Shown: piece by piece, positions 28,344 through 48,049 of the stretch
Layout: each line of letters opens with the position of its first letter
Numbering within the stretch: the stretch's first letter is position 1
DNA from: Escherichia phage HelliStehle_Bas95
Length of the DNA: 56,332 nucleotides
Direction: 5' to 3' (one strand)
Sequence record: PQ850607.1
The notes under the pieces: generated by a model
What the model saw: the letters and a program-made list of their open reading frames with translations, nothing else
Told to the model about the DNA's origin: nothing
The model's database searches: none
Translations under genes and position numbers: made by a program

Positions 28344-28692
28344 GTTCTTCCCACCAGATTAATTTTTCCAGGCAGTCTTTCGCCTTGTTCAAATCTTCCA
28401 GACGCTTCGCCTTGTCGCCTTTCTTGCGCAGGTATTTAACCACGCTGAACTCCAGGCTACTCAGGTTGTTCACCATTGCATATTCGAAAGGTTGAATGCC
28501 TTTCTTATAGTGCTGGCCGCCCACCTGGTTATCCCACGGATTGACACGCGGCGCGACACTGAATGAATTACCAAACACTGTACCGGTATCAGTTTTCGGT
28601 ATACCCAGGTCGACACCACTGACCGCAGGCTTCCACGGGCAGTCAACGTTGTCGTGGTTTTTACCACAGGCTGAGCAATATGATTGAGTCAT
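28327..28692 (-). CDS. DUF3310-like phage protein with N-terminal zinc ribbon
   Basis: GGQHY..GIQP.EY ... KYLRKKGDKAKRLEDLNKA pattern. Confidence 0.55.
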   Translation of the reverse strand: MTQSYCSACGKNHDNVDCPWKPAVSGVDLGIPKTDTGTVFGNSFSVAPRVNPWDNQVGGQHYKKGIQPFEYAMVNNLSSLEFSVVKYLRKKGDKAKRLEDLNKAKDCLEKLIWWEEHDGKI

Positions 28693-29255
28693 CAGAATTT
28701 CTTCCCATGTGCTTCAGCGCGAGCGCCAGGTTGATGGTCGGCACGCTTACGGTTGTAAGCAACCTTCTCCATGATGGCCCCGATGATATCCAGGTTTTCG
28801 CTTTCGGCGATGTCGAGAATGCGGATGATTGCGTCGGCCAGTTCCACTTCCAGCATGGAGCGGTTCGGCAGGTGGTCATCCATCAGGTTCTTACGTGCAC
28901 CTTCCATCGCTTCAGAGATCTCACTGTGCACCAGGCACAACAGAGTACCCATCTCACGCGGCTTATCCCACCAACCCATCTGACGATTCTGACGGTGGAT
29001 GCGACGTTGCAGGATAGCGAACGGGATACTGCGGTACAGTTCGGTGCTGGCCGACTCGACACGCTTGCAACCCATCACTTCAGACTCAACTTCCACTTTC
29101 CCATCTTCAGCTTTGATCGGATTAATACTCATCTTTTCGGAATCCTTATTAGGTTGATTGTCTTTCATGAAACTGTGACCACCATGAATCGATTGATTGC
29201 AGCCGGGTGATGCACCAACTTCGTTTACACCACAGTGTATGCAAGATCTACTCAT
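28692..29255 (-). CDS. MazG-like nucleoside triphosphate pyrophosphohydrolase
   Basis: C-terminal EMGTLLCLVHSEISEAMEGARK...ELADAIIRILDIAE; start placed at ATG 29255 with SD GGGGA. Confidence 0.6.
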   Translation of the reverse strand: MSRSCIHCGVNEVGASPGCNQSIHGGHSFMKDNQPNKDSEKMSINPIKAEDGKVEVESEVMGCKRVESASTELYRSIPFAILQRRIHRQNRQMGWWDKPREMGTLLCLVHSEISEAMEGARKNLMDDHLPNRSMLEVELADAIIRILDIAESENLDIIGAIMEKVAYNRKRADHQPGARAEAHGKKF

Positions 29256-29382
29256 CTTTTTCATTCCCCTTTTTACGACCGATTTTACCACTGCATACAG
29301 GGCATTCCTCGCCCCACTTCTTAGCACTGTAATGACCGTGCTCGCCACACTTCCGTAAATCGTTAAGCCATAAGATAGCCAT
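29248..29382 (-). CDS. small zinc-ribbon protein
   Basis: 44 aa MAILWLNDLRKCGEHGHY...CPVCSG; below six-frame track cutoff; downstream of promoter at 29416-29444. Confidence 0.4.
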   Translation of the reverse strand: MAILWLNDLRKCGEHGHYSAKKWGEECPVCSGKIGRKKGNEKDE

Positions 29383-29415
29383 TGTATTTTCCTAGCTGGT
29401 TTACTTGACGGGGCT

Positions 29416-29444
29416 AATGTACCCCGCATTGAAACTTGTGTCAA
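29416..29444 (-). promoter_or_regulatory. sigma70-type promoter TTGACA-17-TACATT
   Basis: read on - strand; GGGG...CCCC palindrome in spacer. Confidence 0.5.
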
Positions 29445-29448
29445 TTAA

Positions 29449-30039
29449 TTATTTTATTAAAAGTTTGTGCGCTTGAAAAATGTACCAAAGGTAATTCACA
29501 TTATTCCAGTCGAGACGGGAGGCCAGGCTACAATCTGATACAAGTTGACCTGAGCACATGCTTGATTCTGTCACATCACCCCATCGACTTTTATTCTTCG
29601 TGTGGATGCGCTCGTCGTGCGGCACCCCGGCAGCGTCCAGCTTGCGCAACATGGCGATCACCGGGTCAGCCAGCAGTTCCGCAACCACGCTGTCGTAATA
29701 CTGGTCCGTCAGTTTGTTCTTACGCTTCCACGTTCCGGGCGTACCCTTCGGTGCCGTGCGCTTAACTAGTGTGCCGCCGGACTGCGCGACGTAATACCGG
29801 ATAGTGTTGGACAACTTCTCTTCGTGGCCGTCCGGGTAAACCAGATGCAGCGACGAGTCACGGTTAACCTTGCCACGTAACATGAAGTCGTAAGGGTCAC
29901 GGTGGTTGATAATGAACGACGTTAAGTCTTTACCATAAACCATATGCTCCACCACCGCCTTCTGCACCACCAGGGCGGAGTGATCTTTATGCCACTCACG
30001 ATCGAATGCGTAAGCGCCTTTCAATTTCAACTTGCTCAT
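29449..30039 (-). CDS. hypothetical protein downstream of DNA polymerase
   Basis: 196-aa ORF, different frame from polymerase ORF, in-frame TGA 7 codons upstream of its ATG. Confidence 0.5.
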   Translation of the reverse strand: MSKLKLKGAYAFDREWHKDHSALVVQKAVVEHMVYGKDLTSFIINHRDPYDFMLRGKVNRDSSLHLVYPDGHEEKLSNTIRYYVAQSGGTLVKRTAPKGTPGTWKRKNKLTDQYYDSVVAELLADPVIAMLRKLDAAGVPHDERIHTKNKSRWGDVTESSMCSGQLVSDCSLASRLDWNNVNYLWYIFQAHKLLIK

Positions 30040-30169
30040 ACAGCCACCCTCTCGACGTCATAACCTTTACACTCGTGTCTATCACCAGCATGTCTGTGGA
30101 AATACGACGGTACCGATGTATGTAGTTTCATTTTCACCAAACCTTAATTACTTGACGATAGCAATATAG

Positions 30170-31711
30170 TTATTCGTACTCCGCAATATAATTGTTGCAA
30201 TCTCGAATGAACATTCGACTGTAACACGCTTCTTCAAGCTCTAACTGGGTAACCTGTTCCCACCACTTACACACGTTGTCAACATGTTCCAGATATTCCA
30301 CCGGACAGTAGTACGTGATACCGTCGGTATTACACTGAATCATCCGAAGGCCCGGAACTTTCAGTAATTGCTCAACCAACATACACAGTGAAAGCTGGCC
30401 TGATACAGTAATCGTGAGTGTGTACTGAGAATCGTAAAACGGGCTGTACGCATTGTTACTGTTGCCGTACGTACCGTTGAGGGCCAGCTTGAAAGCTCCG
30501 CCCATCATCGTCTTTTTACCTACACGCAGACGTTCGTTATACAAAAACTCGTATATCTCACAAAACTTTTCTGACAGGTGCGCAGGGTAAATCTTATTTT
30601 TGATTGCAAGGTTTGGGTAATAACTCGCAACGTCACGATCCCGCACTTTCATCTTATCGTCACTAACTATTATTTCTCTGTGTAACGATGCGTGCAATCC
30701 CCCTGTACCGAAGTCGTAATTGAAATCGTTGATACGACAATGCAAGCTGGCCGCCACAAACTTCGCACCCTCAAGGTCTGTACCCTCTGGCAAGTTGCAT
30801 AAGCGACGTGGCTTTTTAGAACCCTTCACCCACACTTTGATACGCTTCGGGTCCATCCACTTAATCATCTCAGGTGTACATACAATGTCTGAAAACGCAC
30901 CTTTAGTTTCCTTGATTGTCTGAGCGGCCAGGTAGTTCATTACCATTTGAAACGCGGGATGTTCCAGTTTGATGTAAGGTATGATGCATTCTTTCAGCGG
31001 TATCTCTTTACGAATGGTCTGACGAGGTACACGTTTACCGCCTTTCTTTTCGTAACACGGTACACCAGATTTCTCCAGTTCCGTGATGAACACCTCGGCC
31101 CCGATCTTAGTGTCATTATGGTTCATGAAGTCTTTTCCGTATTTCTCGGTAAGCTCTTCACGAAATTGAATCATGTCGTACGACGCCTTGTAAAACTCTA
31201 ATGTCGCATCAACGTCATGGTCGTTGTACGCCCACAGAATTTTCTTTTGGTCATCGTCCAGATGGGTACCGACCGGGAACGGCAGGTCTTCCACACTGTC
31301 CATACGCATTGATATCTCCAGCGCCTTCAGACTGGTAGCCTTAGCCTTGTTATCGAAGTGGTGGATCTTCAGCAGGTCAATCTGCGGTATCAGTCGAGCG
31401 TCAGCCCACATCGGGTAAGCGTTGTCACCTTTAATACGCTGCATGGCCTTCTGATAAATACCTGCTACGGATGCCCACGGATTTTCGTACAACCACTGCA
31501 AAATTTCCCAGTCAAACCACAGGTTGTTGTAACCTACCATACGCTGGTCGTTGTTACGCAGGTAGTTCATGAAATAGAAAAGTTTCTCCCTATCATCTCG
31601 ACGGTCAGATATTTCATAACGGTATCTGTTACCAGACACAGCATGAACCGCACTGAACGTGAAGATGTTGGGGTACGTTTCCAAATCGTAAACATAATCG
31701 CGAGCATCCAT
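30170..31711 (-). CDS. family B DNA polymerase (compact, exonuclease + polymerase motifs)
   Basis: YDLETYPN (Exo I), YNNLWFDWE (Exo II), DVASYYPNL (motif A), KLALNGTYGNSNN (motif B), NTDG in place of DTDS (motif C); 513 aa. Confidence 0.75.
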   Translation of the reverse strand: MDARDYVYDLETYPNIFTFSAVHAVSGNRYRYEISDRRDDREKLFYFMNYLRNNDQRMVGYNNLWFDWEILQWLYENPWASVAGIYQKAMQRIKGDNAYPMWADARLIPQIDLLKIHHFDNKAKATSLKALEISMRMDSVEDLPFPVGTHLDDDQKKILWAYNDHDVDATLEFYKASYDMIQFREELTEKYGKDFMNHNDTKIGAEVFITELEKSGVPCYEKKGGKRVPRQTIRKEIPLKECIIPYIKLEHPAFQMVMNYLAAQTIKETKGAFSDIVCTPEMIKWMDPKRIKVWVKGSKKPRRLCNLPEGTDLEGAKFVAASLHCRINDFNYDFGTGGLHASLHREIIVSDDKMKVRDRDVASYYPNLAIKNKIYPAHLSEKFCEIYEFLYNERLRVGKKTMMGGAFKLALNGTYGNSNNAYSPFYDSQYTLTITVSGQLSLCMLVEQLLKVPGLRMIQCNTDGITYYCPVEYLEHVDNVCKWWEQVTQLELEEACYSRMFIRDCNNYIAEYE

Positions 31712-31720
31712 TTTAAGTCC

Positions 31721-32401
31721 TTACATTTTCGGCAGTGGTGGTAAACCTGGTGCGTCCGGCAGCTTCGGTGGTAATGACGGTGCGCCCGGTAGCGGTGGTA
31801 ATGATGGTGTCGCCAGTGACGGTGCGGCAGTCTTCAGGATCTTCACGTTCGGACTGTCAACGTCATGCCCCAGCAGCTTCTTAGCTTTGTAGAAGAGTTC
31901 TTCCAGCATCGCCAGACCTTTGTCCGGGCTATCGGTCATCGTCGGGATACTGCGTTCTTGCTCAGCGACAAAACGGTTGGCCGCGTTAAGTGTCGAGCCG
32001 TCAAAGTTGTGACCCTTCAGCATCAGTTGCTTCTTGTCATTCGTCACCGCGTACAGATAAGCGTAGTGGCTGACGTGTGACTCGTAGTGATTCTGCCAGA
32101 TGGTAGCGTTGCACTGGTGCTGAGTCTGGCGACCGACGATGCGGGAGGCCATCATATTGGCGCCAATCAATTCGGCCCCGGAGTTTACCAGCGTCTGCAC
32201 GTTGGAGTAAATGAACTTTTTGAAAACGTCATCACCGTAGTGGTCTGTAACTTTCTCCCAGTCCTGCAACACGTAATCGTAGCGGTGTTTCTCTTCACCG
32301 AAGATTGAGATGGATGCAGCGATAACGGGAGAACCTAATACGGCGTTGGCGGTGATGAGGTGTATTGCAGCGATTCGTTGTGCCATGATTTCGGATTCCA
32401 T
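31721..32401 (-). CDS. hypothetical protein with Pro-rich C-terminal tail
   Basis: 226-aa ORF directly upstream of polymerase. Confidence 0.5.
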   Translation of the reverse strand: MESEIMAQRIAAIHLITANAVLGSPVIAASISIFGEEKHRYDYVLQDWEKVTDHYGDDVFKKFIYSNVQTLVNSGAELIGANMMASRIVGRQTQHQCNATIWQNHYESHVSHYAYLYAVTNDKKQLMLKGHNFDGSTLNAANRFVAEQERSIPTMTDSPDKGLAMLEELFYKAKKLLGHDVDSPNVKILKTAAPSLATPSLPPLPGAPSLPPKLPDAPGLPPLPKM

Positions 32402-32781: not shown

Positions 32782-33819
32782 TTACGCGTTGTAAGGGTGA
32801 CCGCCTGGTGCAGCAGGTGCTGCAGGTGCCGCAGGTGCTGCCGGAGGTGTCATCGGTGCTGCGGCTGCCGCAGGTTGCATCTTACCGTTAGCGACCAGGG
32901 CTTCTTCTGTCCAGCCGCTTGCGATGTACTGATCGTAAGTGTAATCAGTAGCAATCATGCGGCTCTGCGGCGTCGGTGCTACAGGCGCAGCAGGAGGTAC
33001 AGCAGGAGCGGCGGCAGGTGCAGGAGCAGCAGGAGGCATACCAGCACCCGGAGTAACCGGAGCAGCGGGAGTTGCCGGAGGCATACCAGCGCCCGGTAAA
33101 CCAGGCATCCCGCCAGCAGCCGGAGGCATACCAGGTTGTGCACTCATCGCCGGAGTAGTACCGCCCACAGGCATAGTGCTCATGCCAGTCAGTGATGCAG
33201 CAGGTTCCTGATTCAGAATGCTGGTGTAGTCAGGACCGCTCACGATCGGCGTACCGTAACCCACACGCTGAATCATGTGGAAGTTAATGTAAATGCCGGA
33301 CTGCGGTGGCGCTGAGTCGTTGCACTTGATAGAGCACAGTACGCGAACATAGTGGCCGCACGGGAAAGTGTGAGCGCCTTTAAGCTGTTGCACTTTCTTA
33401 CCGTCAGGACCAACGGTGTCGTTGTACGGAGATGGTACCGCAGACTGATCAACGTCGAACACCTGTGGCTGGAAGCCGTTCTTGAATTTGATAACCCAGC
33501 AACCTTTCCAGCCAGGCTTGTTCACGTTTTGCGGAGCGTCGCCATCTTCCATCTTCCAGTGAAAACCTACCCACTGAGTCGCCTGATATGACGCAGCGTA
33601 TTTATGCTTAGCAGCTTCCTGTTGCATCAGCGCATACAGTTCATCAAAGCGCGTGGCCGCTGGCTGGTCTTTCGGGAAGGCCACTGCGCAGAAATATTCC
33701 TCACGACCGTCCTTCAGCGCAACGCCCTGGAAGCCAGTGGTGTTAGCACGGAACGGGTCGCCGGATACCAGGATGCCAGTACCAGTCAGGAATTGATCAG
33801 CAGAGTTTTGAATAGCCAT
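32782..33819 (-). CDS. putative ssDNA-binding protein (DUF2815-like) with Pro/Ala/Gly/Met-rich linker
   Basis: 345 aa; low-complexity PAAPGMP linker and aromatic/acidic C-terminus; adjacent to Cas4-like nuclease and polymerase. Confidence 0.5.
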   Translation of the reverse strand: MAIQNSADQFLTGTGILVSGDPFRANTTGFQGVALKDGREEYFCAVAFPKDQPAATRFDELYALMQQEAAKHKYAASYQATQWVGFHWKMEDGDAPQNVNKPGWKGCWVIKFKNGFQPQVFDVDQSAVPSPYNDTVGPDGKKVQQLKGAHTFPCGHYVRVLCSIKCNDSAPPQSGIYINFHMIQRVGYGTPIVSGPDYTSILNQEPAASLTGMSTMPVGGTTPAMSAQPGMPPAAGGMPGLPGAGMPPATPAAPVTPGAGMPPAAPAPAAAPAVPPAAPVAPTPQSRMIATDYTYDQYIASGWTEEALVANGKMQPAAAAAPMTPPAAPAAPAAPAAPGGHPYNA

Positions 33820-33822: not shown

Positions 33823-34998
33823 TTACTTCTCCAGTTTTGTAATAGGTTGGTTTAGTGCAATCATCATCGGGCTTTGTTCCGGGGTACCAGCTTCTTCGAT
33901 ACCACGTAGCGCCAACGTTTCGGTTTTCGGTTCGCTCAGCATCTTAGCCACGGCGTCACCGTACGTCTTCCTTATTTCTGACAGCGCCCCAATCTTACGC
34001 GGTGCTATCTTGTCCATGTCTGGTTCCATCCCGGTCACCAGCTTAATTGCTTTGGCCGCTTCCTCGACCGTGATGTTTTTCTTAGGCGCTTCCCTGGATT
34101 TTACTTTGACCATCTTCAGGTCTTTCATCACCGTGCCTTGACGCGCTAACTGTAATCCCCACTGATACGCCCCGTCAATAAAATTCTTCACCAATTTTGA
34201 TTGTTTGATGATTTTCTGAACTTCTTCCGAGGATAACAGGTTCGGGTTAAACTTCACTGGCTCAGCCATGCTCATGACATACTCAGCATTAGCGCGGCAC
34301 CGACCGATAGCTTCACACCAGATACAGTGTGGGCCAGCGGTTGCTAACTGGATTTCGTTGCTGTGGTTAGCGGTTTGATATTCTGCCGCCACACCTGCAA
34401 ATAACTCCAGTTCAGCACGCGTATACGTTGCTGTGCGTATTGCTCCCGTTGCGCCGAGGCATCGTGGCTGGATGATTTCAAAGCGTACTTCCTCCACGTT
34501 CGGGTAACGCAATACGATGTCCAGCGCATAGCACATTAGCTGGCGGTTATCTTCAGCCGACACAAACGTCCTGCCGAATTTTAGATCCGCAACAATGGCC
34601 CAGTTACTGTGTATCGCAATCGCATGTAAATCTCGGGTGCCGAAGAAGCCTGGGTGAATGTGGGTCAGGTCGACCCGATACTCCGATCTAATGTCGACCG
34701 GAACATCCAAAGCGCTACACATGTCGACTAGTTGCTTGACGCGGCCAGTGTACACGTTGCAGAACTCTGCCATTTCCTCAGTGCATTCTATCCCTGTGCG
34801 GTCATAGACTTGTCCAACAAATTGATGAACATCGTAATGACCGCGCTTGATTGCTTCTTCTGAAAAGTGGTGAGCAGTAGTCCCTTCCTGGGCTGCGTAC
34901 CCGGATTCTTCTTCCGGGCAGTTGCGGCGCATCTGGAGATAGGCTTTACAGTTCGACCACAATTCGGCACTCGATGGTCCGGTTATAAAGTGTTCCAT
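33823..34998 (-). CDS. PD-(D/E)xK nuclease, Cas4/RecB-like (DUF2800-type)
   Basis: IVADLKFG motif plus Cys cluster HCIWCEAIGRC; 391 aa. Confidence 0.65.
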   Translation of the reverse strand: MEHFITGPSSAELWSNCKAYLQMRRNCPEEESGYAAQEGTTAHHFSEEAIKRGHYDVHQFVGQVYDRTGIECTEEMAEFCNVYTGRVKQLVDMCSALDVPVDIRSEYRVDLTHIHPGFFGTRDLHAIAIHSNWAIVADLKFGRTFVSAEDNRQLMCYALDIVLRYPNVEEVRFEIIQPRCLGATGAIRTATYTRAELELFAGVAAEYQTANHSNEIQLATAGPHCIWCEAIGRCRANAEYVMSMAEPVKFNPNLLSSEEVQKIIKQSKLVKNFIDGAYQWGLQLARQGTVMKDLKMVKVKSREAPKKNITVEEAAKAIKLVTGMEPDMDKIAPRKIGALSEIRKTYGDAVAKMLSEPKTETLALRGIEEAGTPEQSPMMIALNQPITKLEK

Positions 34999-35010: not shown

Positions 35011-35727
35011 TTAGATAACTGACTGGCTACGCAGGAAGTCATCGTTGGTGGCGTACTGCCAGAAGGTAAATTTATAACCCGCCTGGATGTCTTTCGCAGT
35101 CTTACCGCCAGCGATACCGAACAGGCCGTACAGTTTTTCCAGTGCATCGGCACCATGCTTGTGGGCCAGCGCCGCAGCGGTCTGTTCCATCGCTTCGTCG
35201 GTAGCACCGGACTCATCAGCGATTGTCGGGAAGTCGATCGCAACAGGCATTTGTGGTACCAGCGGCGGCAGACCTACACCAGTCAGCGGCGGTAAACCCG
35301 GTTGCGGTGCAACAGGTGCCTGTGGCGCTTCGACAGCAGGTGCCTGCGGTGCTTCAACCTCTTCAGCAGTGGCAACTTCACCACGTAGTTCAGCTTCAAC
35401 CTGTGGTACCAGCACTTCACGGTCAACACCACGCAGATATTTCCAGGTGCCGTCTGCGTTGAAGGTCTTAGCGGCAGAGTGAATACGGGAGTCCCACGGT
35501 AGACCGTTCTTATCCAGCGTGGTAGCATCCGTTTCCTGGCCGATTGACTGAGCTACTTCTTCAGCAACTTCGTCAGCCGCATCAGCGAATGACTGTTGGT
35601 TACCAGCTACCGTATCGACTACGGTCAGCGTACAGCGTTGTTCTTTACCGTAAGCGCCAGCGATGACTTCCAACAGGGAAATGATTTTGGTATTTTGTTC
35701 GACCAGCGTTTCAAAGATTCCAGACAT
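35011..35727 (-). CDS. hypothetical protein
   Basis: ATG at 35727 with SD CCTGGAG; longer annotated ORF would overrun the divergent promoter. Confidence 0.5.
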   Translation of the reverse strand: MSGIFETLVEQNTKIISLLEVIAGAYGKEQRCTLTVVDTVAGNQQSFADAADEVAEEVAQSIGQETDATTLDKNGLPWDSRIHSAAKTFNADGTWKYLRGVDREVLVPQVEAELRGEVATAEEVEAPQAPAVEAPQAPVAPQPGLPPLTGVGLPPLVPQMPVAIDFPTIADESGATDEAMEQTAAALAHKHGADALEKLYGLFGIAGGKTAKDIQAGYKFTFWQYATNDDFLRSQSVI

Positions 35728-35779
35728 TTGTATTACTCCAGGTTGATTAAAGTTTTGTTGTGTCGTGTTGACGGAATGA

Positions 35780-35832
35780 ATCATACACTCAACCAAAAAC
35801 CGATTGCAATACTTTTTTAAAAATTTTATTAT
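35780..35832. promoter_or_regulatory. back-to-back divergent promoters sharing one palindromic -35 hexamer TTGCAA
   Basis: + strand TTGCAA(35804-35809)-17-TATTAT; - strand TTGCAA-18-TATGAT (35780-35785). Confidence 0.55.
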
Positions 35833-35867
35833 CCTCCTCGTCAACACACATATAAGAGAACATCGAG

Positions 35868-39464: not shown

Positions 39465-41885
39465 ATGACCTATAAGCCTGAACAGGCGCAGTTGTTTTAT
39501 GCCGCGCTAACTGGAATGCAAAACCCGCCGCTTGTATGGCAGTGGTTCTGTGACTATGACAAAGACCGACGCGACCTGGCTGGCTGGGAATACGCGTATA
39601 TGAATCCGACAAAGCTGGCTGACCTTCAGGCTCGCGGCTGCGGCGTGTTCACGTCTGTCAATGGTTCGACTACAGGCGGTCGTGGTAAGAATGACATCGA
39701 CATCTTCCGCGCTGTCTTCATGGACAGTGACGGTGCTCCGTTCCCGGACCAGTGGCCTATTCCACCACACGCTATCGTCAAGCGCGACGACACGCACTTC
39801 CACGCTTACTGGTTTATCGACGGCGACTGCTCTGCTATGGAGTGGATGATCGCACAGAAGCAGATCGCTCTGCACTTCGGTAGCGACGAGTCAATGGTAA
39901 ACCCTGACCGCGTTATGCGTGTACCGGGATTCATGCACCAGAAGTCACTGAACAACCGCGTTCTCTACGAACTGGCGGAACTCCACGCTGACATGCCACG
40001 CTACAAACTGCGCGACGTTATCTCACGCTTCACGTTGACCGACGAGAAGATGATGAAGATGGGCGAGTGGGTACGCCAGCGCAGCGCTCAGTACGTGGGC
40101 GGTATGGATGATTTCGACGACAACGATCACAACTGCAAACAGTTTATCACCTACCTGAAGGAGCGCGCCGAGCAATCCATCAGCGGCCAGGGTGGTAACC
40201 ATGTGCTGTTCAAGACTGCCGCCGCCGGACGTGACTACCAACTGTCACCGCAGAAAACCTACGAGTTAATGATTGACTACTGGGACGCTAACAACGAACC
40301 GCCGTGGGGCGATGAGATGTGGCCGACCGTCCAAAACGTTTACAAGTACAGCCAGAATGGTGTCGGTGCGCGCTCTTTCGCTGCACGTATCACTGAGCAG
40401 GCCGCTATGCTGCCGGGTATGTCACTGACTCCGGTTGAGCAGGCTATCTATGTGCCGGAAGCGCCAGTCGTTGACGAGAAGCAGCAAATGGCCGAGTCAG
40501 TAGCACGCCTGGCTGCGGCAATCGAGTCCGGCGATGACAGCATGATGCAGCCTGACGACATGGTTTACAGTTCCAACCATACGCGTAACGCTATGCTGTT
40601 TATGTGGTTGCACTGCCGCAACGGTGAGTACCTTGTCGACGATGGTATCATGTACCAGTTCAACGGTAAGATTTACGAAGCTCAAGCGCCGGACTTCCTG
40701 AAGGTTAAACTGGCTACTGAGATGCAACTCAGCTTCCCTTCGGAGTCAACCATCAACGGTACCGCCAACCTCATCAAGCTGTTACTGGCACGCTCTGCTC
40801 CGTCCAAATGGCCTGAGTGGAAAGGTGATCCCGATAAGGATACATCCGGCTTGATATGCTTCAACAATGGCATTCTGGATATTAACGAGAATCTCTGGTA
40901 TGAACACACGCACTTACTGCGCATTCGTACCATTCTCCCGTTCGATTATGATCATCAGGCCACTTGCCCTACGTGGGAAAACTTCCTGCGTGACGTGTGG
41001 GGTAACAGCAAATACGAACCACTGATTGAACAGTTACAGATGTGGTTTGGCTATATGCTTATGGATGATACCAGTCAGCAGAAGATGCTCATCATGTCCG
41101 GTACCGGGGGCGCTGGTAAGTCGACCATCATGCGCACGCTTAACAAAATGGTAGGCGACTACAACTGCGCGTTCCCTAACCTGAACGGCTTAACTAAAGA
41201 TTCGCAACTGGCAGCTTTATTCGACAAGCCTGTGGCAATCCTGAACGACGTGTCTGATCCGTCACCATCTAACGCTACAGCAGTGGTTGAACGTATCAAA
41301 GGTATCGTAGGTCAGGACAAGTTAACGATTGACCGCAAGTACCTGACGTCAATCGAGGTCAGTTTCCGGTGCCGTCTGAACGTTACCTGCAACGCCTTCC
41401 CGCGTTTGTCAGAGTCATCAAACGCTATGCTTCGTCGTGGTCTGTTCTTCACAACCAAGCGTTCGTTTGTCGGCAAGGAAGACATGACGCTGGAACCGCG
41501 CATCGAAAAAGAGATGACAGGCATTATCAACTGGGCGATCACAGGTATCAAAAAGTTACAGAAGATTGGCAAGCTGGAAAACCACCCTTGCATGAATGAC
41601 GACATTGAAATCTTCCGTATGTTGACGTCGCCGCTTGAAACGTTCGTGCAGGATGCGCTGGTATACCGTGAGGATGCTTACATCACCATCTCAGATCTGT
41701 GCAAGCGTTACAAAGCATGGTCAACCCTGAACGAAGGTTCGCGCATGTTCAGTAACCAGTCATTTATAAGTAAGATCGGTGTGTTCCCTGGTTTGAGTCT
41801 GGCGAAACGTGGCCGCGACTATGTACTGGAAGGTGCTTACCTTCGACCGGATGACGAACCAGACAACGGAGTTATTTACCAGTGA
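39465..41885 (+). CDS. DNA primase / D5-type NTPase (primase-helicase)
   Basis: 806 aa; N-terminal primase-polymerase-like region (GCGVFTSVNG, FMDSDGAP), C-terminal P-loop SGTGGAGKST. Confidence 0.7.
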   Translation: MTYKPEQAQLFYAALTGMQNPPLVWQWFCDYDKDRRDLAGWEYAYMNPTKLADLQARGCGVFTSVNGSTTGGRGKNDIDIFRAVFMDSDGAPFPDQWPIPPHAIVKRDDTHFHAYWFIDGDCSAMEWMIAQKQIALHFGSDESMVNPDRVMRVPGFMHQKSLNNRVLYELAELHADMPRYKLRDVISRFTLTDEKMMKMGEWVRQRSAQYVGGMDDFDDNDHNCKQFITYLKERAEQSISGQGGNHVLFKTAAAGRDYQLSPQKTYELMIDYWDANNEPPWGDEMWPTVQNVYKYSQNGVGARSFAARITEQAAMLPGMSLTPVEQAIYVPEAPVVDEKQQMAESVARLAAAIESGDDSMMQPDDMVYSSNHTRNAMLFMWLHCRNGEYLVDDGIMYQFNGKIYEAQAPDFLKVKLATEMQLSFPSESTINGTANLIKLLLARSAPSKWPEWKGDPDKDTSGLICFNNGILDINENLWYEHTHLLRIRTILPFDYDHQATCPTWENFLRDVWGNSKYEPLIEQLQMWFGYMLMDDTSQQKMLIMSGTGGAGKSTIMRTLNKMVGDYNCAFPNLNGLTKDSQLAALFDKPVAILNDVSDPSPSNATAVVERIKGIVGQDKLTIDRKYLTSIEVSFRCRLNVTCNAFPRLSESSNAMLRRGLFFTTKRSFVGKEDMTLEPRIEKEMTGIINWAITGIKKLQKIGKLENHPCMNDDIEIFRMLTSPLETFVQDALVYREDAYITISDLCKRYKAWSTLNEGSRMFSNQSFISKIGVFPGLSLAKRGRDYVLEGAYLRPDDEPDNGVIYQ

Positions 41886-42376
41886 AACCTTTCTACGCAA
41901 GCAAGACACCAAAGGAGTTACGCGATTGCTGGGGTACGCCCCAGTGGTTGATTGATCGCCTGTCGCTGGAGTTTGATTTCGCAATCGACGCGGCGGCAGA
42001 TGAGCACAACAGAAAGTTCCCCCTGTATTTTAAGCAGGGGTTGGGCTTTAACTGGGCGGACTTCTGCCCGGAAGGTAAATGGGTATGGAACAACCCGCCG
42101 TTCTCTGACGTCGACCCGTGGGTGGATCAGTGGATACAGTGCAGCGAATCGGACCGTGGCGTGGTGTCAATCGTCAACGCACAGACGAGCAGCCGCTGGT
42201 TTCATAAGGCGCTGGAGGCTTGCTCAGAGGCCAGGTTTAGTATCGGGCGTGTGGCCTTCATTCACCCCGTTACCGGAAAGCGTGTAGCCGGAAACAACCT
42301 GGGGCAAGTGCTGTTCGTATTTGAACCGGGCAAGCTGGGTGAAAAAAGAATTGGCACTTTCAAAGGAACCAAGTAG
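41882..42376 (+). CDS. phage Dam-like DNA N6-adenine methyltransferase
   Basis: DCWGTPQWL and NPPF motifs; GTG start overlapping primase stop. Confidence 0.65.
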   Translation: MKPFYASKTPKELRDCWGTPQWLIDRLSLEFDFAIDAAADEHNRKFPLYFKQGLGFNWADFCPEGKWVWNNPPFSDVDPWVDQWIQCSESDRGVVSIVNAQTSSRWFHKALEACSEARFSIGRVAFIHPVTGKRVAGNNLGQVLFVFEPGKLGEKRIGTFKGTK

Positions 42377-42403: not shown

Positions 42404-42592
42404 ATGAAAATCACACCACTGAAGGAATGGATTGAAGGTCACCGCTCGTTAACGGCTGCGGCTGAAGTGCTCGACGTTCCAAAACAAAACCTGTCGTTTG
42501 CTTTGAACAAAGTGAAGGGCGCTACGTTTGTGCTGGAGGAAGACGACGGGACACTGCGGTTGTTACGTGAGGTTGCAAAAAGGGGCGCATAA
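42404..42592 (+). CDS. small hypothetical protein
   Basis: 62 aa; SD AAGGAGGA. Confidence 0.5.
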   Translation: MKITPLKEWIEGHRSLTAAAEVLDVPKQNLSFALNKVKGATFVLEEDDGTLRLLREVAKRGA

Positions 42593-42617
42593 GCGCCCTT
42601 AGTTTTTTTTTTTTTTT
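42582..42617. terminator. strong terminator separating + replication block from - early block
   Basis: GGGCGC-ataa-GCGCCC stem followed by T15 and preceded by A5. Confidence 0.8.
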
Positions 42618-43071: not shown

Positions 43072-43372
43072 GGCGGCTGGCCTCCTGTGCATCAACGATT
43101 GCTTCGTTTGTGGCGACAATGAGATCCACCACATGTTTTGCGAGTACGGTAAGATTCCCGTGTCGCGCTTGATTCACCACGTTGATCGCGGTGTTCTCAT
43201 CCGTCATCATTTCCACGCCGTCAATCAGGTCGACGATGAATTTGTGGCGGTCATACTCCCGGTTAAAGCTGGCGATGTCCGGGTGGTTATCAAGATGAAA
43301 GCAACACCTGTATCCTTTAGGTAAATTGGTAACGCGATCACCTACTCGCGGCCCGTCGATTAAAAGAATCAT
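43061..43372 (-). CDS. hypothetical protein
   Basis: start at MILLIDGP...; ATGA overlap with HNH gene. Confidence 0.45.
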   Translation of the reverse strand: MILLIDGPRVGDRVTNLPKGYRCCFHLDNHPDIASFNREYDRHKFIVDLIDGVEMMTDENTAINVVNQARHGNLTVLAKHVVDLIVATNEAIVDAQEASRHVR

Positions 43373-43974
43373 GCTTTGTGTTCTCCGTGGTTGGCAAATT
43401 CTCCATGTGCCAGTCGTTGAGCCTGTAACCATTCCACGGCGAGGCGTTTACCTTCTTCAGTTAAAGGGAAGTATTTAACATTCTTGCATACTCCCGCACG
43501 ATAACACTTTCCTTTATTTACAGACAAACCTTTGATACCCGTCGAACTATCAAACCGCGTTTGTCTATTCCAACTGTTCTCGTCCGGTTCAGCTTCCCGT
43601 AAATTAGAGATTCGATTATCATCACGAATCCCGTTAAGATGGTCTAACCATCCGTTAGGTGGTTCACCGTAATACATTTCCCATATAATACGGTGAACCT
43701 TCCAACACTTGCCGTCAAACGTGCATTGTCTATAACCTTTCGGATCAAGCGAACCAACCTCATCACCAGCTTTAACGCGACGAGCCGTTGGTCTTTTCCA
43801 GAACAGCTTCCCGGTAACAGGGTCGTAACGAAAATGATGCTCAAATAAATGTAGCGACAATTTGAGCCTCCTTGCGATGTGATCTGTGAATGGTAACGAC
43901 TCCAGCCGTTTCAAGTTTCTTCGCCGCCTTGCGCACATGCTCTTTGTCATAGCCGGTATAGGAGGCCAGTTCAT
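43369..43974 (-). CDS. HNH homing endonuclease with AP2-like DNA-binding domain
   Basis: GKLFWK...GYRQC..DGK.WKVHRIIWEMYYGEPP.GW.DHLNG.RDDNR.SNL; start uncertain (overlaps upstream ORF). Confidence 0.7.
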   Translation of the reverse strand: MNWPPIPAMTKSMCARRRRNLKRLESLPFTDHIARRLKLSLHLFEHHFRYDPVTGKLFWKRPTARRVKAGDEVGSLDPKGYRQCTFDGKCWKVHRIIWEMYYGEPPNGWLDHLNGIRDDNRISNLREAEPDENSWNRQTRFDSSTGIKGLSVNKGKCYRAGVCKNVKYFPLTEEGKRLAVEWLQAQRLAHGEFANHGEHKA

Positions 43975-44730: not shown

Positions 44731-44759
44731 AATATAGGTTAGTTAAATCTGACTGTCAA
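44731..44759 (-). promoter_or_regulatory. near-consensus sigma70 promoter TTGACA-17-TATATT
   Basis: read on - strand. Confidence 0.6.
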
Positions 44760-44764
44760 TAGAT

Positions 44765-45460
44765 TTATTTATAGGCTTCCAGTGCTAGTCTACAAATATG
44801 TGATCTAACGCAATCATTTTCATGGAAGAGAATACCCTGAACGTCGTCAGAGTCATGGAAACGGGCCAGCGCGTCGCTCAGACCGTCTTGCATACCTTTC
44901 GGTAAATCACACTGAGTGACGTCACCGTTGACGACCACGATACAGTTTTCCCCGATACGCGTGAGGAAAGTTTTCATCTGTTTTACGGTTGTGTTCTGCG
45001 CTTCGTCGAGGATGATGAACGCGTTGTCAAAGCTGCGGCCACGCATGTAGGCGAACGGTGCAATCTCAATCTTACCGTGGTCCATGCAGTATTTGAAATG
45101 CGTCTCGCCCAAGCGTCGCTTCAGGGTTTCGGATACAGGTTTAAAATACGGATCAAACTTAGCGTTAATGTCACCCGGCAGGAAGCCCATGTCTTCATCC
45201 GCGTTGAGTACAGGGCGGGTAACGATGATTCGTTCAACGACTTTGTCAGTGAGGTACTCAGCAGCCTTACACGCCGCGATAAATGTCTTCCCGCATCCGG
45301 CAGCACCGCTGGCGAAAATAAGGGATTTGGTTCGAATGGCCTCAAGATATGACTCCTGATTTACGGTGCGCGGTTCAATCGGTGATTTATCTGCGCGGGT
45401 GACGGGGGAAGGGTTGGTGTTAAGCTCGACAACTTCAGCAGTGTTGCGTTTCTTACCCAT
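44765..45460 (-). CDS. phoH: PhoH-like ATPase
   Basis: GAAGCGKTF Walker A, IILDEAQN, GDVTQCDL; start at ATG 45460 with SD GAGGTG. Confidence 0.8.
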   Translation of the reverse strand: MGKKRNTAEVVELNTNPSPVTRADKSPIEPRTVNQESYLEAIRTKSLIFASGAAGCGKTFIAACKAAEYLTDKVVERIIVTRPVLNADEDMGFLPGDINAKFDPYFKPVSETLKRRLGETHFKYCMDHGKIEIAPFAYMRGRSFDNAFIILDEAQNTTVKQMKTFLTRIGENCIVVVNGDVTQCDLPKGMQDGLSDALARFHDSDDVQGILFHENDCVRSHICRLALEAYK

Positions 45461-45505
45461 AGAGCACCTCGTTTGAGAGGGGCGCGGGATTGCGCCCATC
45501 GTTTA

Positions 45506-45706: not shown

Positions 45707-45960
45707 TACTCCGTCTCCACGCTGTAACCCTGATCGCGAACGTAGTCTAAGATTTCGTTCAGACTAACGCCACCTTTGTTAATCCAGTCTTCAAAACCAC
45801 CCATAGCGTTTAGAAGCGTATCCGCACCGTATTCATCAACAATGATTTCGGCGTCCACGCAGTCGGCCAGTGCAAGACCTTCGATTGCCATTGTGATTTC
45901 GGCATAGTTTGCTACTTCAACTTTAACGCTTTGTGCTACAACCTGAATGTCGATACTCAT
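45706..45960 (-). CDS. hypothetical acidic protein
   Basis: 84-aa ORF. Confidence 0.5.
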   Translation of the reverse strand: MSIDIQVVAQSVKVEVANYAEITMAIEGLALADCVDAEIIVDEYGADTLLNAMGGFEDWINKGGVSLNEILDYVRDQGYSVETE

Positions 45961-46442
45961 GATTTATGACTCCCGCGTGGTCGCGTCACGTGACGCGTGA
46001 TGTTATGCTGTTTACACAGCTTGTAAATGCGTTCCGGGTACACCCCAATCTCACCAGCGTAATCGCTGGCGGTCATGGTTAACATCGCGTGACGCAGATG
46101 ATTAATGTCGACCTTCACGCCCTTCTCAGGACTTTTCCAGCCGTACTTCTTGCGCACTGTGTCAAGCTGGCGCGGGAGTATTCCCAGCAGTTCGGCAGCT
46201 TCAGCACGCGGCTTACGCTCGACAATCATTTTGTTCATCGGCGTGTTTGCCACTGGCACCCGGTACCGTTCGATAGGCTCCCAGTTCTGCCAGACTACCC
46301 GCAGCCTGTAACGATGGTTAACGCGCTGGACCGCCCGGTATTTCCCCTTATACGTCACGACACAATAAGGTTTACCGAGTACCGCAGACATGCGTTCAGC
46401 CTGCTTGATGGCCTCGTCCAGTGTGTCACAGGTGATTGCCAT
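45957..46442 (-). CDS. hypothetical protein (possible DNA-binding)
   Basis: 161-aa ORF. Confidence 0.5.
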   Translation of the reverse strand: MAITCDTLDEAIKQAERMSAVLGKPYCVVTYKGKYRAVQRVNHRYRLRVVWQNWEPIERYRVPVANTPMNKMIVERKPRAEAAELLGILPRQLDTVRKKYGWKSPEKGVKVDINHLRHAMLTMTASDYAGEIGVYPERIYKLCKQHNITRHVTRPRGSHKS

Positions 46443-46633
46443 TAGCGACGCGCCTTACCACGGCTATTGCCAGGGAGCGTACGGACTTCTAAAGGAATGA
46501 TGCGAACACCTTTACGGGTATAGCGCTTCGTGTACGTTACGATCTCGGTGCGCTGCGGTGGTGCCAGGTCACGCAAAGCGGCGGAGAAAGGTGTAGAGAA
46601 AGCGTTACCGAACAGCATTTTAAATAAGCTCAT
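46442..46633 (-). CDS. small basic protein
   Basis: 63 aa. Confidence 0.45.
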   Translation of the reverse strand: MSLFKMLFGNAFSTPFSAALRDLAPPQRTEIVTYTKRYTRKGVRIIPLEVRTLPGNSRGKARR

Positions 46634-46668
46634 TTTGATTTTCCTATTGTCGCGTTTGTAGAATAATG

Positions 46669-46697
46669 AATTTAGTATAGTCGTCCCTGACTGTCAA
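46669..46697 (-). promoter_or_regulatory. sigma70-type promoter TTGACA-17-TAAATT
   Basis: shares ACTTGACAGTCAG core with promoter at 44731-44759. Confidence 0.5.
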
Positions 46698-46701
46698 GTA
46701 A

Positions 46702-47331
46702 TTAATCCGCAGTAATGAAAGAATCTACATCCGGCGGCCACGTGTCTTGCGGCTGCGGCGGTAATGCAGGTTTGTTATTGAGTTTGGCGTAAGCCTTGCA
46801 CACCCACTCAACCTGGTACCGGGCATCATGCAGCGCGTTATGATACTGGATGTGCGCTGGACGCGTGCGGGGCATCTGCATACCTGCAAGCCACATGATA
46901 GTTCTGACGTCTCGCACGTTCCAGAATTTGTACGGGTATTCGTGACCAAACTTCCCAATCTGCGGCGTTGTCTGACGCATCCACCACTCGATAATCGGAA
47001 TGTCAAATACGCTACCATTAGCCCACACCTGACAATCACTCAGGTTGTATTTGACAAACCAGTCACGGAACGACCGTGATGCGTGGCGCGGATCGGACTT
47101 CCCGTTGTAGGCTTCTTCGCGTGCGGCGGCGTCCTGACCTTCCCACCACTTCAAGGTATTGATGTCAGCCAGACCATACTGTTGCGCTTTGTCTTTATCC
47201 ATGCGCTCGTAGAACTCTGCTACAATATCGCCCGTGGTGATGTCGAACGCACAGGCACCGATCGTTAACAGTGGTGCGTTAGGCGTGGTCGCCAACGTTT
47301 CACAGTCAATCATTACATGAAGGTTACTCAT
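46702..47331 (-). CDS. DnaQ-like 3'-5' exonuclease (DEDDh)
   Basis: VMIDCETLA (Exo I), FDIPIIEWW (Exo II), YHNALHDARY (Exo III). Confidence 0.7.
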   Translation of the reverse strand: MSNLHVMIDCETLATTPNAPLLTIGACAFDITTGDIVAEFYERMDKDKAQQYGLADINTLKWWEGQDAAAREEAYNGKSDPRHASRSFRDWFVKYNLSDCQVWANGSVFDIPIIEWWMRQTTPQIGKFGHEYPYKFWNVRDVRTIMWLAGMQMPRTRPAHIQYHNALHDARYQVEWVCKAYAKLNNKPALPPQPQDTWPPDVDSFITAD

Positions 47332-47558
47332 GGTTTAATCTCCATTAATGAGTCTTCGTATTCAATGTCACCAGGGCGGACATAATCGACAGCGTGACAT
47401 TGAGAATCATCACCCAGCTTGATTCTCGGCAACCACACGCCGCCTGATAACTTAGGTTCACGATAGAACGCGTAAATTTCCCCGTCGTGATCAGTTGCCA
47501 GGTGTGTAGCGTTATCCGGTACATTAACGTCATGACCAAAGTATTTTACAGTTTTCAT
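47328..47558 (-). CDS. hypothetical protein
   Basis: 76-aa ORF. Confidence 0.45.
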   Translation of the reverse strand: MKTVKYFGHDVNVPDNATHLATDHDGEIYAFYREPKLSGGVWLPRIKLGDDSQCHAVDYVRPGDIEYEDSLMEIKP

Positions 47559-48049
47559 TTATTGCTATCCTCATCCAGTACAGCAGCACACAGGCTATCA
47601 ACCTGCACCACGATCACCCGGTCTGAAAGCGCTTCGAACGCTGCGCAAACTTCAGGGTCATCATCAAAGCACATAAACTTCTCAGTGCCGTAGGTCTTCA
47701 GCAGGCGGCGCAGGGCGTCAGTTTTGAAATCAGCCGCGCTGCGGTGGTCGTCCATCGGTCGCATCTGCAACTCAATGAGCGTGCGGCTCAACTCCAGATC
47801 GTTATGCAGACGGTCCATCGTCGGCAGGTAGGCAGACTTGCCGCGCCCGGTGAGGAAGCGCACATCTTCACCATTAGCCAACAGTTGCTTGATGATAGCC
47901 AGCGTATTAGGGATCGGCTTATCACCACGGCACGCCCCGTTAAACTGCGCCCAGGCTTCGGTGTCGTTGCGTTTGTCGCCAGTCGGCATCAGGTGCGCGC
48001 GGTGGCGATTGTCGTACAAGGTGCCGTCCAAATCACAGATGTAAATCAT
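47555..48049 (-). CDS. HAD-superfamily phosphatase (nucleotidase / 3'-phosphatase-like)
   Basis: DLDGTL motif I, LTGR motif II, FDDD motif IV. Confidence 0.65.
   Translation of the reverse strand: MIYICDLDGTLYDNRHRAHLMPTGDKRNDTEAWAQFNGACRGDKPIPNTLAIIKQLLANGEDVRFLTGRGKSAYLPTMDRLHNDLELSRTLIELQMRPMDDHRSAADFKTDALRRLLKTYGTEKFMCFDDDPEVCAAFEALSDRVIVVQVDSLCAAVLDEDSNK

What the first reader, a model, noticed from the sequence alone, without database searches (positions are those of the whole stretch)
28692..48049. Nucleotide-processing gene set without recognisable base-modification enzymes
MazG-like pyrophosphohydrolase, HAD phosphatase, DnaQ-like exonuclease, PhoH and a Dam-like methyltransferase are present, but I found no thymidylate synthase or hydroxymethylase homologue, deazaguanine or glycosyltransferase genes. 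Protection from host restriction therefore probably relies on adenine methylation and early anti-defence proteins rather than hypermodified bases.
Basis: inference. Interest (0 to 1): 0.25.

Follow-up and report, generated by a model that had tools for sequence, protein, structure and literature searches.

The report
Ordinary phage replication genes, unmodified DNA
This stretch is the normal DNA-replication and nucleotide-housekeeping block of a published E. coli phage (HelliStehle, Bas95); its only recognisable DNA-modifying enzyme is a Dam-type adenine methylase, and published plating data show that host restriction enzymes cut this phage efficiently.

Summary
The gene list is right. The region holds a MazG-like pyrophosphatase, a HAD phosphatase, a DEDDh (DnaQ-like) exonuclease, PhoH and a Dam-family N6-adenine methyltransferase. 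These sit inside a replication/recombination module: a split family-B polymerase, gp2.5-like SSB, DUF2800 exonuclease, an intein-bearing helicase and a primase.

Pfam and PHROG scans of essentially every ORF in the window found no thymidylate synthase/hydroxymethylase, QueC/D/E, DpdA/TGT, PurZ, aGPT-Pplase, TET/JBP or glycosyltransferase.

The window matches Escherichia phage HelliStehle (Bas95, PQ850607) in length, GC content and restriction-site counts. Its authors found it "very sensitive to RM systems". Efficiency of plating was 1e-2 to 1e-6 on EcoKI, EcoCFT_I, EcoRI and EcoRV, and there were no plaques on EcoCFT_II or EcoPI.

So "no hypermodified bases" is supported. [quoted passage not shown] is not: the phage is essentially unprotected against the six systems tested.

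One caveat is an orphan Nmad5 ("nucleotide modification associated domain 5") gene 1 kb outside the region. It has no enzyme-like fold and lacks the cytosine-methylase-like neighbour it has in relatives.

The finding is ordinary and already known. Side notes: a helicase intein, and a polymerase split at a homing-endonuclease site.

The parts
28327..28692 (-). DUF3310 protein, T7 gp1.7-like 'nucleotide kinase' candidate. It lies immediately next to MazG and just outside the finding.
   Evidence: Pfam DUF3310 E=6e-4. PHROGs annotated 'nucleotide kinase': phrog_236 E=6e-9. Its PTXU04 homologue gp32 was re-annotated 'nucleotide kinase (ambiguous)' by HHpred. Phage hits are labelled DUF3310 or nucleotide kinase.
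28692..29132 (-). MazG-like all-alpha NTP pyrophosphohydrolase. The mechanical ORF runs on to 29444; the likely start is the ATG at 29132.
   Evidence: phrog_5658 E=1.6e-52. 93% identical to PTXU04 gp33 over residues 27-154. EISE/ELAD motifs. No Pfam hit.
29449..30039 (-). C-terminal (thumb, KxY) fragment of the family-B DNA polymerase, encoded as a separate ORF with its own RBS.
   Evidence: phrog_1252 E=5e-183 for the two joined halves, and phrog_15833 (a 192-aa profile) for this fragment alone. 80% identical to PTXU04 gp35 residues 524-716. Sequence.
30040..30169 (-). 130-nt non-coding spacer that splits the polymerase gene.
   Evidence: Stop after ...AEYE, then GAGAGGGTGG before the ATG. 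PTXU04 is continuous here. In L006 a GIY-YIG homing endonuclease ORF occupies the same position. No Rfam hit.
30170..31711 (-). N-terminal fragment of the family-B DNA polymerase: exonuclease domain plus palm motifs A, B and C.
   Evidence: 77% identical to PTXU04 gp35 residues 1-512. Motifs DLE, DVASYYPN, KLALNGTYG and NTDG read.
31721..32401 (-). Conserved hypothetical protein. The N-terminal domain has an RNase H/DEDD-like fold without the DxE motif, and the tail is Pro-rich.
32782..33819 (-). gp2.5-like ssDNA-binding / annealing protein.
   Evidence: phrog_7011 E=2e-47. Enc34_ssDNA-bd E=1e-4.
33823..34998 (-). DUF2800 PD-(D/E)XK-type exonuclease.
   Evidence: PF10926 E=1e-45. phrog_69 E=2e-55.
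35868..38732 (+). SF2 (ResIII/Helicase_C) helicase. It carries a 331-aa LAGLIDADG intein at nt 35982-36974 inside the Walker A motif (GGGK|C...THN|T).
   Evidence: Hom_end_hint E=1.8e-18, LAGLIDADG_3, Hom_end, ResIII and Helicase_C. Removing residues 39-369 gives 623 aa against 622 aa in PTXU04. Related inteins sit in helicases of Vibrio and Klebsiella phages.
39465..41885 (+). Primase / D5-like NTPase.
   Evidence: RepB_primase, D5_N and DUF5906. 97% identical to PTXU04 gp44.
41882..42376 (+). Dam-family phage N6-adenine DNA methyltransferase, the only recognisable DNA-modifying enzyme in the window.
   Evidence: PF05869 E=4.9e-30. TIGR01712 100.8 bits, above the 97.05 cutoff. NPPF motif, and it is the only ORF with such a motif.
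42581..42600 (.). Bidirectional terminator-like hairpin between the convergent (+) and (-) operons.
   Evidence: PTXU04 annotates a terminator at the equivalent place.
43369..43974 (-). HNH homing-type endonuclease.
   Evidence: HNH_3 E=5e-13. phrog_99 E=9e-50.
44765..45499 (-). PhoH-like ATPase.
   Evidence: PF02562 E=5e-75. NF007827 326.7 bits. Walker A and B motifs.
46702..47331 (-). DEDDh (DnaQ-fold) Rv2179c-like 3'-5' exo(ribo)nuclease.
   Evidence: PF16473 E=1.4e-39. phrog_255 E=3.5e-51. Motifs.
47555..48049 (-). Stand-alone HAD phosphatase of the PNKP-phosphatase type, with no kinase domain.
   Evidence: Acid_phosphat_B E=6e-7 and HAD_PNKP E=2e-5. phrog_415 E=6e-37. DLDGT and DDD motifs.
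49112..49768 (-). Orphan Nmad5 domain protein, outside the finding's coordinates. It is the only 'modification-associated' family in the window.
   Evidence: PF18757 E=2e-26. AF2 pLDDT 88, a helical bundle with no enzyme-like match. Its neighbour in relatives, the cytosine-methylase-like gp66, is absent here.

Best explanation
Region 28692-48049 is the replication, recombination and nucleotide-housekeeping module of Escherichia phage HelliStehle (Bas95), a relative of the genus Xuquatrovirus.

It replicates ordinary A/C/G/T DNA with a family-B polymerase, helicase, primase, gp2.5-like SSB and an exonuclease. The accessory enzymes act on pools or ends, not on bases. By inference, MazG-like hydrolyses (d)NTPs to (d)NMPs, the adjacent gp1.7-like protein may re-phosphorylate dNMPs, the HAD enzyme removes phosphates, the DEDDh enzyme trims 3' ends, and PhoH is an ATPase of unknown role.

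The only covalent DNA modification the genome can be predicted to make is N6-methyladenine, from the Dam-family enzyme. By analogy with characterised family members the target is probably GATC (147 sites).

This does not shield the phage. Its DNA is a good substrate for type I, II and III restriction in vivo.

Shown: gene identities, absence of known modification families, and (published) restriction sensitivity. Inferred: the individual enzyme activities and the methylase specificity.
For: Identity of the window:
- Length 56332 bp, GC 0.515, starts at the small-terminase gene.
- Site counts (EcoKI 4, EcoCFT_I 7, EcoRI 2x2, EcoRV 4x2, EcoPI 75) equal those tabulated for Bas95/PQ850607.
- Nearest records are PTXU04 and Pondi at about 89-90% over 83-85% of the region.

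Gene identities.

No known base-modification family in any ORF of the window. No second methylase motif.

Published EOPs of 1e-2 to 1e-6, or no plaques, on six R-M systems, with EOP about 1 on RexAB, PifA, Fun/Z and Old.

PTXU04 DNA is digested with BglI.

PTXU04 homologues of MazG, Dam, PhoH, the exonuclease, HAD and Nmad5 are all 'Not Fit' on knock-down in BL21, which fits accessory roles.
Against: - An Nmad5 gene is present. In M6-like phages this family sits in the thymidine-hypermodification cassette (PMC9476957).
- Many small early ORFs and several mid-size proteins (31721-32401, 35011-35886, 54771-55814) have no assigned function, so an unrecognised enzyme cannot be excluded.
- Restriction sensitivity excludes dense or global protective modification, but not a sparse or motif-specific one.
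- Identity with PQ850607 is inferred from matching statistics, not from a sequence alignment, because that record is not in the searchable collection.
- The CRISPRi screen also calls the DNA polymerase 'Not Fit', so its negatives are weak.
Confidence: 0.85

Rival explanations
1. One reading: the phage relies on Dam-type adenine methylation plus early anti-defence proteins to escape host restriction.
For: An intact Dam-family methylase with NPPF is present. About 40 small early ORFs of unknown function lie at 48-56 kb. GATC is mildly depleted, 147 observed against 183 +/- 14 in dinucleotide shuffles, so GATC-directed pressure may exist. GATC-specific R-M systems (MboI/DpnII type) were not among those tested.
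Against: The phage is strongly restricted by all six R-M systems tested: type I (EcoKI, EcoCFT_I), type II (EcoRI, EcoRV) and type III (EcoCFT_II, EcoPI). The authors conclude it lacks potent protection. No Ocr, ArdA, Lar or Dar family was found. The E. coli host already supplies Dam methylation of GATC (established knowledge), so the phage enzyme adds little on this host. The PTXU04 Dam homologue is dispensable on knock-down.
Confidence: 0.12
2. A cryptic modification pathway: Nmad5, with MazG, the gp1.7-like kinase, the HAD phosphatase and unknown ORFs, makes a sparse or motif-specific non-canonical base that the six tested R-M systems do not notice.
For: Nmad5 is clearly present (E=2e-26) and is associated with hypermodification cassettes elsewhere. 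MazG and a putative nucleotide kinase are adjacent. Several proteins remain unassigned.
Confidence: 0.04

Closest known systems
Escherichia phage HelliStehle (Bas95, PQ850607), BASEL collection (PMC11990801)
   Same: Length 56332 bp, GC 0.515, about 91 CDS, no tRNA, genome start at the small terminase, and all tabulated restriction-site counts match the window. The published conclusion, RM-sensitive with no potent genome protection, covers the substance of the finding.
   Different: I could not align the window to the record because it is not in the searchable phage collection, so identity is inferred. The paper's main text does not mention an intein. The split polymerase and the Nmad5 gene are absent from the passages about this phage that I read, but I did not search the paper for them.
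Xuquatrovirus phages PTXU04 (NC_048193) and Pondi (OP136151)
   Same: The replication/nucleotide module is collinear. MazG, SSB, exonuclease, primase, Dam, PhoH, DEDDh exonuclease, HAD and Nmad5 are all shared at 65-99% amino-acid identity.
   Different: The window lacks gp25 (2197-aa LPD38 polyvalent protein) and gp66-68, including the cytosine-methylase-like gp66 with FDGSG/FPPC/ENP motifs. It has an intein in the helicase and a split polymerase, both of which are continuous in PTXU04 and Pondi.
Phage Dam methyltransferases (Pfam PF05869 / TIGR01712; e.g. T1 and Stx-phage Dam, from my own knowledge)
   Same: The profile match is above curated cutoffs, the size is similar (164 aa) and the NPPF catalytic motif is present.
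   Different: Target specificity is untested here. No solved structure of a close relative was found.
Thymidine-hypermodification cassette of Pseudomonas phage M6/SN1 (PMC9476957)
   Same: Shares the Nmad5 family.
   Different: Lacks every catalytic member: pyrimidine hydroxymethylase, nucleotide/5-hmdU kinase, aGPT-Pplase1/2, radical-SAM and PLP enzyme. The phage DNA is restriction-sensitive.
Z-genome (PurZ/MazZ/DatZ/DpoZ) phages
   Same: A MazG-like pyrophosphatase lies next to the DNA polymerase. There is a weak PDB match to MazZ, E=0.15.
   Different: No PurZ (adenylosuccinate-synthetase family) or HD-type DatZ. The polymerase is family B, not PolA.

Membership tests
Phage Dam N6-adenine methyltransferase (PF05869 / TIGR01712) | Profile match above the curated cutoff | tested here: met
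   PF05869 104.9 bits against a cutoff of 28.1. TIGR01712 equivalog 100.8 bits against 97.05.
Phage Dam N6-adenine methyltransferase (PF05869 / TIGR01712) | Catalytic motif IV (D/N)PP(Y/F) | tested here: met
   NPPF at residues 71-74. It is the only such motif among the called ORFs of the window.
Phage Dam N6-adenine methyltransferase (PF05869 / TIGR01712) | Methylation of GATC adenine | not testable with these tools
   Needs a DpnI/MboI digest or SMRT/nanopore calling on phage grown in a dam- host.
MazG / all-alpha NTP pyrophosphohydrolase superfamily | Profile match to a curated MazG family | tested here: inconclusive
   No Pfam or NCBIfam hit. Strong PHROG 'pyrophosphatase' matches, E=1.6e-52. 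Weak PDB matches to MazG, MazZ and DCTPP1, E 0.1-0.3. Korf et al. report CDD cd11542 for the PTXU04 homologue.
MazG / all-alpha NTP pyrophosphohydrolase superfamily | EXXE...EXXD metal-binding motif | tested here: met
   EISE at residue 71 and ELAD at residue 97 of the 146-aa product.
HAD phosphatase (PNKP-phosphatase type) | Motif I DxDG(T/V), motif II T/S, and an acidic motif IV | tested here: met
   DLDGT at 6, FLTG at 65, DDD at 129. Acid_phosphat_B 29.7 bits, above the cutoff of 27; HAD_PNKP 25.1 bits, below its cutoff of 27.6. phrog_415 E=6e-37.
DEDDh (DnaQ-fold) exonuclease, Rv2179c-like | Profile match plus DxE and Hx4D motifs | tested here: met
   PF16473 136 bits against a cutoff of 27. 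DCE at 9 and HNALHD at 164.
PhoH | Profile match plus Walker A and B | tested here: met
   PF02562 251.9 bits. GAAGCGKT and FIILDE motifs.
Pyrimidine hypermodification (T4 hmC / SPO1 hmU / M6-ViI thymidine hypermodification) | Thymidylate-synthase-fold dUMP/dCMP hydroxymethylase | tested here: not met
   No Thymidylat_synt family in any ORF at E<=0.05 or E<=0.01.
Pyrimidine hypermodification (T4 hmC / SPO1 hmU / M6-ViI thymidine hypermodification) | Glycosyltransferase, or 5-hmdU DNA kinase plus aGPT-Pplase | tested here: not met
   None found. Only the non-catalytic associate Nmad5 is present.
7-Deazaguanine DNA modification (DpdA + FolE/QueC/D/E) | TGT-family DpdA and preQ0 synthesis genes | tested here: not met
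   No TGT, QueC, PTPS/QueD or Radical_SAM family.
Z-genome (2-aminoadenine) | PurZ (adenylosuccinate-synthetase homologue) | tested here: not met
   No Adenylsucc_synt family. The 345- and 347-aa ORFs are an SSB and a Zn-ribbon repeat protein.
Nmad5 (PF18757) | Profile match above cutoff | tested here: met
   93.8 bits against a cutoff of 27 for ORF 49112-49768. The family is defined by association only. No activity is known, and the model has no enzyme-like fold.

The most novel reading that the evidence does not exclude
The orphan Nmad5 protein, perhaps with the adjacent-gene pair MazG and gp1.7-like kinase and the HAD phosphatase, belongs to an unrecognised pathway. This pathway would either install a sparse, motif-specific non-canonical base, or manipulate nucleotide pools as a counter-defence. 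Either would be invisible to the six restriction systems tested on this phage.
Probability: 0.04. Interest if true: 0.5.

Novelty: already known. Interest (0 to 1): 0.1.

Why it matters
It matters little. The finding restates, from sequence alone, what is published for this phage: a conventional replication/nucleotide-metabolism module, a Dam-type methylase, and no effective genome protection.

Its practical value is as a negative control. HelliStehle is a mid-sized podophage with unmodified, restriction-sensitive DNA, so it is useful for comparison with its relatives PTXU04 and Pondi. Those carry an extra cytosine-methylase-like gene next to Nmad5 and a giant polyvalent protein.

The comparison gives a clean natural experiment on whether those two elements confer restriction resistance, and on what Nmad5 does.

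Tried and rejected
1. Z-genome (PurZ/MazZ) idea, prompted by MazG lying next to the polymerase. Rejected: no PurZ or DatZ, and the polymerase is family B.

2. Thymidine hypermodification, prompted by Nmad5. Rejected: none of the catalytic cassette genes is present and the phage is restriction-sensitive.

5. A self-splicing intron as the cause of the polymerase split. The spacer is only 130 nt, there is no Rfam hit in the window, and the downstream half has its own RBS. A relative has a GIY-YIG homing endonuclease at the same site, so a 'gene in pieces' left by a homing endonuclease fits better.

6. A second methylase. PTXU04 gp66 has no tblastn match in the window, and there is no PPC motif or second NPPF-type motif.

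7. Strong GATC avoidance. The depletion is only mild: 0.8x against dinucleotide shuffles and 0.59x against a trinucleotide Markov model. I give it little weight.

8. Promoter and terminator scans of the region were not enriched over shuffles, apart from the bidirectional terminator at 42581-42600.

Full report
**What the window is**

The 56,332-bp window has no tRNA genes. It encodes a podophage-type genome whose only near relatives in the annotated phage collection are Escherichia phages PTXU04 and Pondi, genus Xuquatrovirus. They match at 89-90% nucleotide identity over 83-85% of the region in question (annotations).

The BASEL-completion paper (PMC11990801) describes one further relative, HelliStehle (Bas95, PQ850607). 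Its supplementary table gives 56,332 bp, GC 0.515, 91 CDS, 0 tRNA, and recognition-site counts of 4, 7, 4, 8, 131 and 75. The window has the same length and GC. It has 4 EcoKI sites, 7 sites for my guess at the EcoCFT_I motif, 2 palindromic EcoRI sites (4 if both strands are counted), 4 EcoRV sites (8) and 75 EcoPI sites. It also starts at the small-terminase gene, as that paper's genomes do.

I therefore treat the window as HelliStehle. The identity is inferred from these statistics, because the record is not in the searchable collection.

**Checking the observation**

The finding's coordinates sit on ORF boundaries. All five named genes are real.

- **MazG-like protein, 28692-~29132(-).** It gets no Pfam or NCBIfam hit. 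It matches PHROG pyrophosphatase families strongly (E=1.6e-52). It matches MazG, MazZ and DCTPP1 only weakly in the PDB. It has the EXXE...EXXD metal motif.
- **Dam-like enzyme, 41882-42376(+).** It passes Pfam PF05869 (E=4.9e-30) and the NCBIfam equivalog TIGR01712, and has NPPF.
- **PhoH, 44765-45499(-).** PF02562 (E=5e-75) with intact Walker A and B motifs.
- **DEDDh exonuclease, 46702-47331(-).** Rv2179c-like (E=1.4e-39) with intact DCE and HNALHD motifs.
- **HAD phosphatase, 47555-48049(-).** A stand-alone HAD phosphatase of the PNKP-phosphatase type, with intact DLDGT and DDD motifs.

They are embedded in a standard replication/recombination module:

- a family-B DNA polymerase;
- a gp2.5-like SSB;
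- a DUF2800 exonuclease;
- an SF2 helicase;
- a small endonuclease;
- a D5/RepB-type primase;
- an HNH endonuclease.

**Checking the negative**

I scanned essentially every ORF of the window against Pfam. Small ORFs were concatenated with linkers so that the whole genome fitted into three calls (12, 16 and 37). The region and part of the early region, including Nmad5, were also scanned against PHROGs, and eight further window ORFs.

No ORF matched any of the following:

- a thymidylate synthase or hydroxymethylase;
- QueC, QueD or QueE;
- TGT/DpdA;
- an adenylosuccinate synthetase (PurZ);
- aGPT-Pplase;
- TET/JBP;
- a radical-SAM or PLP enzyme;
- a C5- or N4-methylase;
- a glycosyltransferase.

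Only one called ORF has a [DNS]PP[YFWH] methylase motif.

**The caveat: an Nmad5 gene**

One kilobase beyond the finding's end, ORF 49112-49768(-) is a clear Nmad5 protein (PF18757 "nucleotide modification associated domain 5", 93.8 bits). In M6/SN1-type phages this family lies in the thymidine-hypermodification cassette (PMC9476957). In Dhillonvirus a point mutation in nmad5 lets the phage escape the Tmn defence. There the gene is deletable, and no modification has been demonstrated (PMC11846954).

In PTXU04, in Pondi and in a metagenomic relative, Nmad5 is preceded by gp66. This is a 232-aa protein with FDGSG/FPPC/ENP motifs that the CRISPRi-ART authors annotate as a cytosine DNA methyltransferase. 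HelliStehle lacks gp66-68 altogether. Nmad5 here is thus an orphan, and it gives no positive evidence for modified bases.

**Interpretation**

The published phenotype is decisive. Efficiency of plating for HelliStehle:

| System | EOP across three experiments |
|---|---|
| EcoKI | 4e-3 to 8e-4 |
| EcoCFT_I | 1e-3 to 4e-4 |
| EcoRI | 8e-6 to 4e-2 |
| EcoRV | 1e-6 to 1e-3 |
| EcoCFT_II | no plaques |
| EcoPI | no plaques |

Restriction this strong with only two EcoRI sites and four EcoRV sites has three consequences. There is no effective anti-restriction function against type I, II or III systems. Adenine methylation is neither promiscuous nor protective for these sites.

A Dam-type enzyme could at most protect GATC. 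There are 147 such sites, mildly depleted against 183 +/- 14 in shuffles. The Dam+ host methylates GATC anyway.

The PTXU04 homologues of MazG, Dam, PhoH, the exonuclease, HAD and Nmad5 are all "Not Fit" on knock-down. That fits accessory roles. The screen also misses the polymerase, so this evidence is weak.

**Mechanism, as far as it can be stated**

The phage replicates canonical DNA. Three of the accessory enzymes act on nucleotide pools and nucleic-acid ends, not on bases, and the role of PhoH is unknown. These roles are inferred:

- MazG-like: NTP to NMP plus PPi.
- The adjacent DUF3310/gp1.7-like protein (28327-28692): possibly a nucleotide kinase.
- HAD enzyme: phosphatase.
- DEDDh enzyme: 3'-5' exonuclease.
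- PhoH: ATPase of unknown role.

The Dam-family enzyme adds m6A, probably at GATC. None of these individual activities was or could be tested here.

**Seen in passing**

- **Helicase intein.** The helicase (954 aa against 622 aa in PTXU04) carries a 331-aa LAGLIDADG intein inserted in the Walker A motif (GGGK|C...THN|T). Excising it restores a 623-aa helicase. Inteins 51-59% identical sit in helicase genes of Vibrio and Klebsiella phages.
- **Split polymerase.** The family-B polymerase is split into 513-aa and 196-aa ORFs, between motif C and the KxY motif. A 130-nt spacer separates them, and the second half has its own RBS. Of 17 relatives from IMG/VR, 16 are continuous. One is split at the same residue, with a GIY-YIG/NUMOD3 homing endonuclease in between. 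This suggests a "gene in pieces" left by a homing endonuclease.
- **Other mobile endonucleases.** A 512-aa zinc-finger/Vsr-like homing endonuclease lies on the opposite strand after the terminase gene, and an HNH endonuclease lies in the region.
- **Missing polyvalent protein.** The window lacks the 2197-aa polyvalent protein gp25 of PTXU04.

**Verdict**

The matter is already covered by the published description of this phage, so interest is low.

Noticed in passing
window 49112-49768 (-): Orphan Nmad5 (PF18757) gene, 1 kb outside the finding. The confident AF2 model is a helical bundle with no enzyme-like structural match. In PTXU04, Pondi and a metagenomic relative it is preceded by a cytosine-methylase-like gene (gp66), which is missing here and replaced by an unmatched 86-aa ORF at 49768-50028.
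   Followed up: yes
window 35868-38732 (+), intein at 35982-36974: The SF2 helicase carries a 331-aa LAGLIDADG intein inserted in the Walker A P-loop (GGGK|CLGKD...VTHN|T). The helicase is intein-free in PTXU04 and Pondi. Related inteins (51-59% identical) sit in helicase genes of Vibrio and Klebsiella JD001-like phages. The BASEL paper's text does not mention an intein.
   Followed up: yes
window 29449-31711 (-), spacer 30040-30169: The family-B DNA polymerase is encoded in two ORFs (513 + 196 aa), split between motif C and the KxY motif, and the second half has its own RBS. Of 17 relatives, 16 are continuous. One (L006) is split at the same residue, with a GIY-YIG/NUMOD3 homing endonuclease ORF between the halves. 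Whether the two-piece enzyme is functional is untested.
   Followed up: yes
window 2372-3910 (-): 512-aa ORF on the opposite strand between the large terminase and the structural genes. It has three DUF4379 treble-clef zinc fingers plus an MTES_1575/Vsr-like endonuclease domain (phrog_559 and phrog_3339, 'homing endonuclease'). It is probably a free-standing homing endonuclease.
   Followed up: partly
window 28327-28692 (-): DUF3310 protein next to MazG. It matches PHROGs annotated as nucleotide kinase (T7 gp1.7-like). The MazG/kinase adjacency is conserved in PTXU04 and Pondi.
   Followed up: partly
window 22113-25800, compared with L001 2328-8921: The 2197-aa LPD38 polyvalent protein of PTXU04 (gp25, a 'Fit' gene in the CRISPRi-ART screen) is absent. 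Only a 68-aa, 50%-identical stretch remains, at 25575-25778. A 749-aa ORF (no Pfam hit) and two unmatched minus-strand ORFs (24341-25472) take its place.
   Followed up: partly
window 26479-26745 (-): CsrA-family RNA-binding regulator homologue (PF02599, E=5e-11) next to the lysis genes. Its PTXU04 homologue gp28 is 'Semi-fit' in the CRISPRi-ART screen.
   Followed up: no
[not shown]
   Followed up: partly
window 54771-55814 (-): 347-aa early protein made of four CxxC...CxxC zinc-ribbon repeats (phrog_15231, four stretches). It has no Pfam family and its function is unknown.
   Followed up: no
whole window: CTAG is strongly depleted (16 observed against about 77 expected under a trinucleotide Markov model). 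GATC is mildly depleted (147 against 183 +/- 14 in dinucleotide shuffles).
   Followed up: partly
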